Below are positions 60,135 to 61,892 of a DNA stretch of 64,000 nucleotides, piece after piece; within the stretch, counting starts at the first letter, position 1, and each line of letters starts with the position of its first letter. The notes below the pieces were generated by a model that was not told where the DNA came from, ran no database searches, and was given only the letters and a program-made list of their open reading frames with translations. Source of the DNA: Escherichia coli (GTDB taxonomy: Bacteria; Pseudomonadota; Gammaproteobacteria; Enterobacterales; Enterobacteriaceae); NCBI RefSeq assembly GCF_003334305.1, contig NZ_QOWS01000006.1; one strand, 5' to 3'. The translations under genes were made by a program, and so were the position numbers.

Positions 60135-61892
60135 TTACCTTTCCTGTCGCCTTGCTCCGCGCTCAGAGAGACGTTCGCGTACTGCTGACCGTTGCTCGTT
60201 ATTCAGCCTGACAGTATGGTTACTGTCGTTTAGACGTTGTGGGCGGCTCTCCTGAACTTTTTCCCGAAAAACCTGACGTTGTTCAGGTGATGCCGATTGT
60301 ATACGCTGGCGGGCGTTATCACGTTGCTGTTGGTTCAGTGGGCGCTGCTGTACTTTTTCCTTAAACACCTGGCGCTGCTCAGGCGAGGCTGACTGAATAC
60401 GCTCACGCGCTGCGTCTCTTCGCTGCTGGATCTGTGGGTTAGTCTGCATTTTCTCGCGGACTGCCTGGCGCTGCTCAGGCGAGGCCGACTGATAACGCTG
60501 ACGAGCGGCGTCCTTTTGTTGCTGGGTCAGTGGTTGGCGACGGCTGAAGTCGCGGAAGTCGTCATAGCTCCCATAGTTTTCAGCTTCATTAAACCGCTGT
60601 GCCGCTGCCTGACGTTGGGTATCTCGTGTAATGACGGGGGCGGCGTGTGTTCGTTGCTGAAACTGACTTGCTGCCGCCTGACGCTGGCTGTCGCGTGTTG
60701 GAGCAGGTAGCTGCGTGGCGCTCATTCCGCCGTTGACATCGGTTTGATGAAACCGCTTTGCCATATCCTGATCATGATAGGGCACACCATTACGGTAGTT
60801 TGGATTGTGCCGCCATGCCATATTCTTATCAGTAAGATGCTCACCGGTGATACGGTTGAAATTGTTGACGTCGATATTGATGTTGTCGCCGTTGTGTTGC
60901 CAGCCATTACCGTCACGATGACCGCCATCGTGGTGATGATAATCATCATCGTCATGATGATGATGGTCATGATCGTCGTCATCCCAGTCGATGCTGCTGA
61001 ATAGTGCGTACGTGGTAGCAACACCCATGCTATAGCCGAATCCGCGCACAAAGCTGTCAATAAACGGTTCTCCGGCTGGTGGTGGCAGATAAACCGGCGG
61101 ATACGCAGTATTGGCCCAGTTCCCGTAAACCACGGTTGGGTTGTAGTTGGGAATATAGACCACATCAGGATTGGCGGGCTCAATGGAAATGACGGTTGTT
61201 GCAGGCTCTGTAATGACGGGGCTGGCAGTTAAAACGGTATTGGATGGTATGACGGGTGCCGTGACTGTCTGTTTTACCGGTACAGCTTTCTTCGTTGTGG
61301 TAATAACTTTTTGTTCGGTTGATGACTTCAGCGAACCGGTTTGTTGCGCCAGTTGCCGCAATCGCTGTACCGAGTCCATCACGTCCTGCGGCTGCGCCAG
61401 AAAAGCATCGCCCAGGTTTTGCACCCATTGCGGGTTTTCGCCCATCAATGCCATCAATTGTGGAAAGGCCACCAGTGATTTAACGCTGGCGTCCCACGGC
61501 TGGTCAGATACCGCCTGAATAGCAGCATCGCCTTGTTTAAGTGGATTATCGTGCGACCATTGCACTGCTTGAGCAACGTTTGCCGGATAGGTTGATGCCA
61601 TTAACACTTGTGAAAGCAGAGAATCGGGGTACAGCGCGACAGGCGCAACCCATTGATCGATTTGTGCAGTGCTGAATGCGGATTTGACGACGGCGGGCGT
61701 TACGGGCGGTGCGGAAACCGTTGCAGGAAGCGTAACTGCGGTGATGTCAGGCGCAGTCTGTTGTGTCGATTGCGGTTCCACAGGCGCTTCCACTGTGCGG
61801 CTTTTTATATATAGCCCGGTAGAGGCGGCACAAAGCCCGGCACTGCAAATTAGCGCCAGCACATGGGGTTTAAACGGCAAAGTCATTTTCAT
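60135..61892 (-). CDS. yacH: Uncharacterised secreted/periplasmic protein YacH (DUF3300-like), with Gln/Arg-rich tandem repeats and a His/Asp-rich tract
   Basis: 585-aa ORF; hydrophobic N-terminus MKMTLPFKPHVLALICSAGLCAASTGL; His/Asp tract DWDDDDHDHHHHDDDDYHHHDGGHRDG; three 32-aa repeats (...QSASPEQRQ[AV][VF][RK]EK[MV]Q...). Confidence 0.85.
   Translation of the reverse strand: MKMTLPFKPHVLALICSAGLCAASTGLYIKSRTVEAPVEPQSTQQTAPDITAVTLPATVSAPPVTPAVVKSAFSTAQIDQWVAPVALYPDSLLSQVLMASTYPANVAQAVQWSHDNPLKQGDAAIQAVSDQPWDASVKSLVAFPQLMALMGENPQWVQNLGDAFLAQPQDVMDSVQRLRQLAQQTGSLKSSTEQKVITTTKKAVPVKQTVTAPVIPSNTVLTASPVITEPATTVISIEPANPDVVYIPNYNPTVVYGNWANTAYPPVYLPPPAGEPFIDSFVRGFGYSMGVATTYALFSSIDWDDDDHDHHHHDDDDYHHHDGGHRDGNGWQHNGDNINIDVNNFNRITGEHLTDKNMAWRHNPNYRNGVPYHDQDMAKRFHQTDVNGGMSATQLPAPTRDSQRQAAASQFQQRTHAAPVITRDTQRQAAAQRFNEAENYGSYDDFRDFSRRQPLTQQQKDAARQRYQSASPEQRQAVREKMQTNPQIQQRRDAARERIQSASPEQRQVFKEKVQQRPLNQQQRDNARQRIQSASPEQRQVFREKVQESRPQRLNDSNHTVRLNNEQRSAVRERLSERGARRQER
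60272..60559. repeat. Three tandem 96-bp repeats inside yacH
   Basis: cctg(a/g)cg(t/c)tg(t/c)tcagg(t/c)ga... repeats starting at 60272, 60368 and 60464 (period 96 bp = 32 codons). Confidence 0.8.

What the first reader, a model, noticed from the sequence alone, without database searches (positions are those of the whole stretch)
60135..61892. yacH: uncharacterised exported protein with 96-bp tandem repeats and a His/Asp-rich tract
yacH is the least understood gene in the window. It has a signal-peptide-like N-terminus, a strongly acidic/histidine tract (DDDDHDHHHHDDDDYHHHDGGH, ~60921-60991) suggestive of divalent-metal binding, and three exact-period 96-bp tandem repeats (60272-60559) encoding Gln/Arg/Ser-rich 32-aa units. 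From memory the K-12 protein is 617 aa versus 585 aa here, which would equal one repeat unit. Tandem repeats of this kind are prone to slippage or recombination.
Basis: partly seen in the sequence, partly recalled or inferred. Interest (0 to 1): 0.45.

Follow-up and report, generated by a model that had tools for sequence, protein, structure and literature searches.

The report
yacH: length-variable exported DUF3300 protein
This is the known but functionally uncharacterised E. coli gene yacH, an exported envelope protein whose His/Asp tract and 32-residue repeats change length between strains by slippage and unequal recombination; a real but fairly ordinary polymorphism in a gene whose job is still unknown.

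Summary
Window 60135-61892 (-) is an intact 585-aa yacH (Pfam DUF3300, E 1e-78), lying between lpdA and acnB.

- **Repeats:** three in-register 96-nt units sit at 60245-60532. They are only 67-72% identical to each other.
- **Tract:** DDDDHDHHHHDDDDYHHHDGGH is at 60918-60983.
- **K-12:** its YacH is 617 aa, exactly one 32-aa unit longer. The extra unit is a chimera of units 2 and 1, as unequal crossover at a shared 22-30-nt core would produce.
- **Population:** in samples of complete E. coli genomes, 3- and 4-unit alleles are each roughly half. 5-unit alleles, a contraction-derived 3-unit allele and other in-frame duplications also exist.
- **Tract variation:** it ranges from 14 to 30 residues through exact 6- and 24-nt duplications, yet stays His/Asp-rich in other Enterobacterales.
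- **Selection:** dN/dS is about 0.14 for the gene and 0.07-0.15 in the repeats.

New context:
- DUF3300 is normally followed by a DUF2950 gene. This is so even at the same acnB-lpdA locus in Scandinavium. Escherichia has lost that partner.
- The tract is an insertion into a short, His-enriched family loop.
- The fold has no solved relative.

Metal binding stays plausible but untested. The gene is known and interest is modest.

The parts
60135..61892 (-). yacH coding sequence, 585 aa plus stop
   Evidence: the ORF listing. 100% match to annotated yacH of E. coli H15. Pfam DUF3300 E 1.1e-78.
61821..61892 (-). N-terminal export signal, aa 1-24. Either a Sec-type signal peptide with a putative cleavage after A22-A23-S24, or an uncleaved signal anchor.
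   Evidence: Sequence. AF2 helix 9-29. A-x-[AS] conserved in enterobacterial homologues. Classical signal peptides in distant relatives. Cleavage not tested.
60894..61670 (-). Pfam DUF3300 (PF11737) match, aa 75-333, covering model positions 2-227 of 227
61341..61670 (-). Alpha-helical subdomain of DUF3300, aa 75-184. This is the most conserved part.
   Evidence: AF2 pLDDT above 92. Nearly invariant columns. dN/dS 0.00-0.04 within E. coli.
60990..61313 (-). Beta-rich and Pro/Tyr-rich subdomain, aa 194-301, ending at conserved W303
   Evidence: AF2 strands 194-301. Family consensus IEPAxPQVVYVPxYNPTVVYGxW...YPP.
60918..60983 (-). His/Asp tract DDDDHDHHHHDDDDYHHHDGGH, aa 304-325, written in GAY/CAY codons. 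It is a lineage-specific insertion into a short His-enriched loop and varies in length between strains.
   Evidence: Predicted disordered, pLDDT below 50.
60738..60884 (-). Conserved post-tract segment, aa 337-385 (NINIDVNNFNR ... WRHNPNYRNGVPYHD). Includes H362, which is His in 87% of family members.
   Evidence: AF2 pLDDT 82-94.
60561..60698 (-). Degenerate pair of ~23-aa units, TRDSQRQAAASQFQQRTHAAPVI and TRDTQRQAAAQRFNEAENYGSYD, aa 399-444. Duplicated in some strains.
   Evidence: Sequence. 23-aa and 45-aa in-frame duplications in P0025 and P0002.
60441..60536 (-). 96-nt repeat unit 1, aa 453-484 (QPLTQQQKDAARQRYQSASPEQRQAVREKMQT)
60345..60440 (-). 96-nt repeat unit 2, aa 485-516
60249..60344 (-). 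96-nt repeat unit 3, aa 517-548
60464..60485 (-). 22-nt exact core GCCTCGCCTGAGCAGCGCCAGG in unit 1. It is shared with unit 2 and is the inferred site of unequal crossover.
60368..60389 (-). The same 22-nt core in unit 2
60094..60123 (.). Hairpin AAAAAA-GCGGC-TAACCAC-GCCGC-TTTTTTT between the convergent stops of lpdA and yacH. Probably a bidirectional intrinsic terminator.
   Evidence: Read from the sequence. Not reported by the consensus scan. Inference.
61893..62246 (.). 354-nt intergenic region between divergent yacH and acnB (acnB start at 62247), holding the yacH promoter and 5' UTR
   Evidence: Literature reports CpxR and Rob dependence (PMC9600279, PMC7537768). The CpxR-box scan was uninformative.

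Best explanation
Shown: the locus is yacH. It encodes an exported protein with five parts:
- an N-terminal export signal;
- a conserved two-subdomain DUF3300 core (a helical part and a beta/Pro-Tyr-rich part) with no solved structural relative;
- a disordered His/Asp tract inserted into a loop that is short and His-enriched in the rest of the family;
- a conserved W-x-H-x-P segment;
- a basic Gln/Arg-rich C-terminal tail that, in Escherichia only, contains 32-aa units.

Shown: both low-complexity modules are mutationally unstable but kept in frame.
- The 96-nt units gain and lose copies by unequal recombination or slippage at a 22-30-nt core shared by neighbouring units. The result is alleles with 3, 4 or 5 units. 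The window has the probably ancestral 3 and K-12 has 4.
- The GAY/CAY tract expands by exact 6- and 24-nt duplications, giving 14-30 residues.
- Purifying selection (dN/dS about 0.14) shows the protein is still used.

Shown: Escherichia has lost the DUF2950 gene that follows DUF3300 in most bacteria, including at the same acnB-lpdA locus in Scandinavium.

Inferred:
- YacH acts in the periplasm as an envelope-stress-regulated binding protein.
- The His/Asp tract chelates divalent cations (Zn, Ni, Cu) and/or attracts cationic peptides.
- The Arg/Gln helical repeats contact anionic envelope components.
- Copy number is a nearly neutral or mildly tuning length parameter, not a switch.
For: Identity and architecture.

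Repeat dynamics:
- K-12 has one extra unit.
- The extra unit is a chimera of the unit 2 5' part and the unit 1 3' part, with 1 mismatch in strain C5 and 6 in K-12.
- A 5-unit allele, a 4-aa deletion allele and in-frame duplications of 17, 23 and 45 aa exist.
- The L002 array is best read as a contraction of a 4-unit array.
- Samples: 17 three-unit of 1758 nt, 17 four-unit, 4 of 1764 nt and 1 of 1782 nt among 40 genomes; 30 four-unit versus 21 three-unit among 51 resolved of 60.

Tract: 19 length or sequence variants among 120 cluster representatives; exact tandem duplications; conserved composition in Scandinavium and Rahnella; insertion into a His-enriched 4-residue turn, 13% His against 1.7% overall.

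Selection.

Partner loss: and PMC4653623.

Envelope-stress link:
- CpxR-regulated, repressed by protamine, and the deletion mutant survives protamine better (PMC9600279).
- Lower in a rob mutant (PMC7537768).
- Promoter induced by ampicillin (PMC8865558).
- Listed among genes whose expression is affected by a cathelicidin peptide (PMC6737244).
Against: - No experiment or computation here shows metal, peptide or polyanion binding. The tract could bind metal only incidentally, as a His-tag does.
- The only PDB similarities of the tract are to His-tags and the ZnuA loop, and they are non-significant and compositional (E 0.17-9.6).
- The tract is absent from about 105 of 112 diverse family members, so it is not needed for the core DUF3300 function.
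- One close relative, P0127, lacks the whole tract-to-NINIDVN segment.
- Signal-peptide cleavage is unverified. AF2 draws a 21-residue helix that could be a membrane anchor.
- The allele frequencies come from samples of 40 and 60 genomes, not a census.
Confidence: 0.55

Rival explanations
1. Neutral low-complexity spacers. The His/Asp tract and the 32-aa units are structurally permissive filler with no specific ligand. Their length drifts because the DNA is slippage-prone, and only the DUF3300 core matters.
For: - Many in-frame indels of very different sizes are tolerated.
- 3- and 4-unit alleles coexist at similar frequency.
- The tract is predicted disordered and is missing in most family members.
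- The units are Escherichia-specific.
Against: - dN/dS in the repeats is 0.07-0.15, as low as the gene average.
- His/Asp composition is retained across genera whose YacH shares about 45-58% identity with this protein.
- The insertion site is His-enriched family-wide.
- A basic tail is a family-wide feature.
Confidence: 0.25
2. Gene in decay after loss of its DUF2950 partner. YacH is dispensable in Escherichia and Salmonella and is slowly eroding, with the indels as early symptoms.
For: - The partner gene is absent from E. coli but present at the same locus in Scandinavium.
- In S. Typhimurium 14028s, UK-1, SL1344 and D23580, yacH is a pseudogene through an 8-bp deletion inside the tract (PMC3391293; PMC10048834).
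- E. coli deletion mutants are viable and even fare better with protamine and in recombinant expression.
- yacH dS is 3-5 times that of its flanking genes.
Against: - The gene is present in 5426 of 5426 genomes, at 80% or more coverage in 5416.
- All sampled alleles are annotated as CDS and all tract and repeat variants seen are in frame.
- dN/dS is 0.14 overall and 0.00-0.06 in the core.
Confidence: 0.1
3. Contingency (phase-variable) locus. Repeat slippage switches YacH expression on and off, or switches antigenic form, as an adaptive strategy.
For: - Two slippage-prone tracts lie in an exported protein.
- The Salmonella OFF allele arises by an 8-bp deletion in the tract.
- Allelic diversity is high, including a very divergent imported allele next to an ordinary lpdA.
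Against: - All E. coli variants seen change length by multiples of 3.
- Repeat units are 96 nt or codon-based, not homopolymer or tetranucleotide tracts.
- No evidence of within-strain switching.
Confidence: 0.04
4. CpxP/Spy/ZraP-like periplasmic chaperone or metal-stress module. The LTQQQ...SPEQRQ helical hairpins would be LTXXQ-type repeats, consistent with Cpx regulation.
For: - An LTXXQ-like string (LTQQQ) is present in unit 1.
- Helical hairpins are predicted for aa 457-514.
- The gene is CpxR-regulated.
Against: - Pfam scans of the whole protein and of the C-terminal 191 aa list no LTXXQ or Metal_resist hit even at E up to 10. The best hits are RskA_N at 0.088 and DUF1104 at 0.41.
- phmmer of the tail against PDB sequences returns 0 hits.
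Confidence: 0.04

Closest known systems
DUF3300 (Pfam PF11737) family, usually encoded as a DUF3300-DUF2950 gene pair
   Same: Full-length Pfam match. Shares the family hallmarks: export signal, helical subdomain, Pro/Tyr-rich beta subdomain, the W...H-x-P motif and a basic tail.
   Different: - Escherichia has no DUF2950 partner.
- It carries a 22-residue His/Asp insertion in a loop that is 4 residues long in most members.
- It carries Escherichia-specific 32-aa units.
The family itself has no known function or solved structure.
His-rich loops and tails of metal-handling proteins, e.g. the ZnuA periplasmic loop (also SlyD and HypB tails, from general knowledge)
   Same: A disordered run of alternating His and Asp in an exported protein. 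ZnuA appears as a weak compositional match (7rcj, E 9.6).
   Different: No fold or sequence homology outside the tract. Metal binding by YacH has never been measured. No link to a metal-responsive regulator was found in the papers read.
In-frame intragenic tandem repeats (VNTR-like) in bacterial envelope and surface proteins, which vary by unequal recombination (general knowledge, e.g. streptococcal alpha C protein)
   Same: Exact period that is a multiple of 3, copy-number polymorphism between strains, chimeric junction units, recurrent gain and loss.
   Different: - Units are old and diverged (66-72% nt identity), so exchange relies on a 22-30-nt core.
- The range is narrow (3-5 units among the alleles examined).
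- No evidence of immune or phage selection.
CpxP/Spy/ZraP LTXXQ family
   Same: Cpx-regulated, periplasmic, helical hairpins, and an LTXXQ-like string.
   Different: No detectable sequence or structural homology.

Membership tests
DUF3300 (PF11737) | Significant match to the Pfam profile over its whole length | tested here: met
   E 1.1e-78, model positions 2-227 of 227, residues 75-333
DUF3300 (PF11737) | N-terminal export signal | tested here: inconclusive
   The n/h/c regions and an AXA-like AAS site are present and conserved. Relatives have classical signal peptides. No SignalP run or experiment. AF2 helix 9-29 could be a membrane anchor.
DUF3300-DUF2950 two-gene module | A DUF2950 gene immediately downstream of the DUF3300 gene | tested here: not met
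   In the window, yacH is followed after 70 nt by the convergent lpdA. There is no blastn match to the Scandinavium DUF2950 gene in 5,426 E. coli genomes, and no Escherichia among the 120 best DUF2950 proteins. The pair is present in Scandinavium, Rahnella and a metagenomic contig.
Intragenic in-frame tandem repeat (VNTR-like) locus | At least 2 head-to-tail copies with a period that is a multiple of 3 | tested here: met
   3 copies, spacing 96 and 96. TRF score 221.
Intragenic in-frame tandem repeat (VNTR-like) locus | Copy number differs among strains of the species | tested here: met
   3, 4 and 5 units seen. Roughly equal 3- and 4-unit frequencies in samples.
Simple-sequence contingency locus (phase variation) | Repeat changes shift the reading frame or promoter spacing and so switch expression | tested here: not met
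   All E. coli variants seen are multiples of 3 nt. The only frameshifting event known is the fixed 8-bp deletion in S. Typhimurium lineages.
His-rich metal-binding segment | Dense His with Asp or Glu in a flexible segment | tested here: met
   9 His and 10 Asp in 22 residues. pLDDT below 50.
His-rich metal-binding segment | Measured binding of divalent metal | not testable with these tools
   Needs ITC or ICP-MS on purified protein
LTXXQ / CpxP-Spy-ZraP (PF07813, PF13801) | Profile match to the family | tested here: not met
Bacterial lipoprotein | Lipobox L-[ASTVI]-[GAS]-C at the end of the signal peptide | tested here: not met
   C16 is preceded by A-L-I and C21 by A-G-L, so position -1 is not G, A or S

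The most novel reading that the evidence does not exclude
YacH would be the orphaned half of a widespread, structurally novel two-protein periplasmic module (DUF3300-DUF2950). On this reading:
- the family's conserved His-bearing loop is a metal- or pH-responsive site;
- Enterobacterales amplified that site into a poly-His/Asp tract;
- after losing the partner, Escherichia evolved an expandable Arg/Gln helical-repeat tail;
- the lengths of the tract and tail tune susceptibility to cationic antimicrobial peptides and/or periplasmic metal buffering under Cpx control.
Probability: 0.12. Interest if true: 0.55.

Novelty: already known. Interest (0 to 1): 0.3.

Why it matters
yacH is a core E. coli gene, present in all 5,426 complete genomes searched, and still has no assigned function. 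It belongs to a very large family (more than 9,500 clusters at 50% identity) with no solved structure.

This analysis gives three concrete handles for experiments:
- natural allelic series of 3, 4 and 5 units and of 14-30-residue His/Asp tracts;
- the missing DUF2950 partner, which can be supplied from relatives;
- published links to Cpx, Rob and cationic peptides.

It also warns that the K-12 reference allele (4 units) is not the only common form. Strain comparisons, primers and proteomic databases should allow for length variants.

Tried and rejected
1. LTXXQ/CpxP/Spy/ZraP homology of the C-terminal units: no Pfam, PDB-sequence or structural support.
3. NCBIfam and PHROGs: no family. Rfam: nothing in 59900-62400.
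4. CpxR-box scan (GTAAA-N5-GTAAA, up to 2 mismatches): 53 matches against 45 expected in the window, so uninformative. The promoter and terminator consensus scan was also not above chance.
5. Counting K-12-type extra units with a 96-nt query did not give allele frequencies. Related chimeric units also occur inside some 3-unit arrays, as explained. A flank-only query was used instead.
6. Lipoprotein reading of the conserved Cys16: no lipobox.
7. DUF2950 against PDB sequences: no relative.
8. Literature searches on PF11737, PF11453, b0117, STM0157 and 'YacH periplasm' added nothing functional.
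Full report

Yes. The mechanical ORF list gives a 585-aa ORF at 60135..61892 on the minus strand. It lies between lpdA (ending at 60064, plus strand) and acnB (starting at 62247, plus strand). Megablast against 5,426 complete E. coli genomes finds it in all of them, annotated 'yacH: DUF3300 domain-containing protein'. The match to strain H15 is 100%. Pfam gives DUF3300 (PF11737) at E 1.1e-78 over residues 75-333.

The quoted tract DDDDHDHHHHDDDDYHHHDGGH is residues 304-325, window 60918-60983.

The tandem array is three in-register 96-nt copies at 60245-60532 with spacing exactly 96 and 96. 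TRF gives period 96, 2.9 copies and score 221. The copies are not near-identical: 66-72% at the DNA level. They encode QPLTQQQKDAARQRYQSASPEQRQAVREKMQT-like units.

The K-12 derivative XL10-Gold has a 1854-nt, 617-aa yacH, and the alignment shows exactly one additional 32-aa unit.

**2. How the repeats behave**

K-12's extra unit is a chimera. Its 5' half matches the following unit and its 3' half matches the preceding unit. Unequal crossover or slipped-strand pairing between neighbouring units produces exactly this.

The exchange point falls in the only long exact block the units share. That block is 22 nt (GCCTCGCCTGAGCAGCGCCAGG) in the window and 30 nt in K-12.

Strain C5 has array flanks identical to the window's and only 4 differences in the 5' part of the gene. 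It nevertheless has four units. Its extra unit equals the predicted unit-2/unit-1 chimera with one mismatch, whereas K-12's differs from its own predicted chimera at six positions. This points to events of different ages.

Other alleles seen:
- A five-unit allele with the window-type 'QI' chimera repeated (P0001).
- The three-unit array of strain FDAARGOS_1293 (L002), which consists of K-12-type units 1, 2 and a 3/4 hybrid. This is a contraction of a four-unit array.
- A very divergent Escherichia allele (L004) with three units.

Three units of the window type is therefore probably ancestral, and gains and losses recur.

Two samples taken at even steps down the hit ranking give frequencies:
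- Of 40 genomes: 17 with the window's 1758-nt gene, 17 with 1854 nt, 4 with 1764 nt, 1 with 1782 nt and 1 divergent.
- With a flank-only query, 51 of 60 rows were resolved: 30 four-unit, 20 three-unit and one three-unit minus 12 nt.

O157:H7 carries four units. The rest of the tail is also indel-prone, with in-frame duplications of 17, 23 and 45 aa and a 4-aa deletion allele seen on 249 contigs.

**3. The His/Asp tract**

Among 120 E. coli cluster representatives the tract is always present, in 19 variants of 14-30 residues. At the DNA level it is GAY/CAY codons. The +8-aa and +2-aa alleles are exact 24-nt and 6-nt tandem duplications.

The literature shows the same tract is where S. Typhimurium 14028s, UK-1, SL1344 and D23580 carry an 8-bp deletion (at Asp284, 'gac gat cat cac') that makes yacH a pseudogene. 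LT2 is intact (PMC3391293; PMC10048834).

Homologues from Scandinavium (56-58% identity) and Rahnella (about 45%) keep a His/Asp-rich tract at the same place, with a different sequence.

In an alignment of 112 diverse DUF3300 proteins the tract is an insertion absent from about 105 of them. The ancestral state is a 4-residue turn after a conserved Trp (W303). That turn is itself His-enriched (WHHHHV, WHHGDV, WGHNDV): 13% His in the loop against 1.7% overall. A further His (H362, in W-x-H-x-P) is conserved in 87% of members. So the enterobacterial tract looks like an amplification of a His-bearing family loop. This is the best, though indirect, support for a His-dependent function.

**4. Selection**

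Nei-Gojobori estimates against K-12 and two alleles about 7-9% divergent at the DNA level give dN/dS of about 0.14 for the gene. The helical core gives 0.00-0.04 and the repeats 0.07-0.15. The tail is therefore constrained as protein and is not junk.

yacH is nevertheless unusually diverse. Its dS is 3-5 times that of the flanking lpdA and acnB in the same strain pairs, and it peaks in the linker at residues 191-232. Strain AST85 carries an allele with saturated dS next to an lpdA that is 98.8% identical to the window's. That allele is imported or ancient.

**5. What the protein is**

The family is large: 9,577 clusters at 50% identity have E up to 1e-3. Almost all members have classical signal peptides and basic tails.

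An AlphaFold2 model built on 112 sequences has mean pLDDT 72.6. It shows:
- helix 9-29;
- a very confident helical subdomain at 75-184;
- a beta-rich subdomain at 194-301;
- a disordered tract;
- an ordered 338-385 segment;
- helical hairpins at 457-514, corresponding to units 1-2.

**6. Genomic context**

In a metagenomic contig, in Rahnella and in Scandinavium, the DUF3300 gene is followed within 10-20 nt by a DUF2950 gene. A survey of rhizobia called the pair 'universally co-localized' (PMC4653623).

In Scandinavium the pair sits between acnB and lpdA together with MFS and LysR genes. This is the same locus as in E. coli.

E. coli has only yacH there. The DUF2950 gene has no blastn match in any of the 5,426 genomes. 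No Escherichia protein appears among the 120 best DUF2950 homologues, which come from Enterobacter, Klebsiella, Citrobacter, Leclercia and similar genera. Escherichia YacH is therefore an orphaned half of an ancestral two-gene module. The 32-aa units are confined to Escherichia.

**7. Function**

Nothing direct is known, and the gene is still listed in the y-ome. Published data tie it to the envelope:
- CpxR-regulated, higher under the Cpx-activating conditions tested (cpxA24 or NlpE overproduction).
- Repressed by protamine, with reduced transcription reported after cecropin A exposure. The deletion mutant survives protamine better (PMC9600279).
- Lower in a rob mutant.
- Promoter induced by ampicillin.
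- Listed among genes whose expression is affected by a cathelicidin peptide in UTI89.

My best reading has two parts. The first is shown: an exported DUF3300 protein whose low-complexity modules vary by slippage and unequal recombination under purifying selection. The second is inferred: a periplasmic binding protein in which the His/Asp tract chelates divalent cations and/or attracts cationic peptides, and the Arg/Gln repeats contact anionic envelope components.

The rivals are neutral spacers, decay after partner loss, phase variation, and CpxP/Spy-like chaperone. They are weighed in the structured fields. The last two are poorly supported.

**8. Verdict**

The gene and its family are already catalogued. 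In-frame repeat polymorphism is a familiar phenomenon, so novelty is low.

The useful additions are:
- the direction and mechanism of the copy-number change;
- the tract as a second hot spot and as an insertion into a His-enriched family loop;
- the loss of the DUF2950 partner;
- the absence of any solved structural relative.

Noticed in passing
L004:1001-2860 (E. coli AST85), compared with window 60135-61892: A rare, very divergent yacH allele (about 75% aa identity, synonymous sites saturated) sits next to an lpdA that is 98.8% identical to the window's. Nine genomes fall in the 60-80% identity band. This suggests import from another Escherichia lineage or an ancient allele.
   Followed up: partly
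window 60135-61892 compared with 58640-60064 (lpdA) and 62247-64000 (acnB): yacH synonymous divergence between E. coli strains is 3-5 times that of both flanking genes. It is patchy: dS is about 0.75 in the linker at aa 191-232 against 0.03-0.2 elsewhere. This looks like a mosaic or recombinant history.
   Followed up: partly
L013:5001-7484 (Scandinavium sp.); L014:5001-7486 (Rahnella victoriana): DUF3300 is followed by a DUF2950 gene. In Scandinavium the pair, plus MFS, LysR and a small gene, lies between acnB and lpdA. E. coli has apparently deleted everything except yacH.
   Followed up: yes
Salmonella Typhimurium STM0157 (literature: PMC3391293, PMC10048834): An 8-bp deletion inside the His/Asp tract makes yacH a pseudogene in 14028s, UK-1, SL1344 and D23580, but not in LT2.
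   Followed up: partly
P0002, P0025, P0021, P0074 (E. coli YacH variants): Further in-frame changes occur in the C-terminal tail outside the 96-nt register: duplications of 45, 23 and 17 aa, and a 4-aa deletion (IQQR) allele seen on 249 contigs.
   Followed up: partly
window 60075-60123: Two hairpins lie between the convergent lpdA and yacH stops: GCCGG-AACAT-CCGGC, and A6-GCGGC-TAACCAC-GCCGC-T7. The second looks like a bidirectional terminator, but the consensus scan did not list it.
   Followed up: no
window 61845-61847 (Cys16 codon) and 61884-61892 (first three codons, MKM): Cys16 in the hydrophobic core of the signal sequence is invariant in six enterobacterial homologues, although there is no lipobox. 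Homologues from other genera start at the position of Met3, so the true start codon may be the second ATG.
   Followed up: no
P0280 (NCBI VTQ53429.1): A protein labelled Campylobacter jejuni sits in a 90%-identity cluster otherwise made of Rahnella victoriana YacH homologues. This is probably a mislabelled or contaminated record.
   Followed up: no
window 58577-60064: The mechanical ORF for lpdA starts at an upstream GTG (495 aa). The annotated 474-aa protein starts at 58640 (MSTEIKTQ...).
   Followed up: yes
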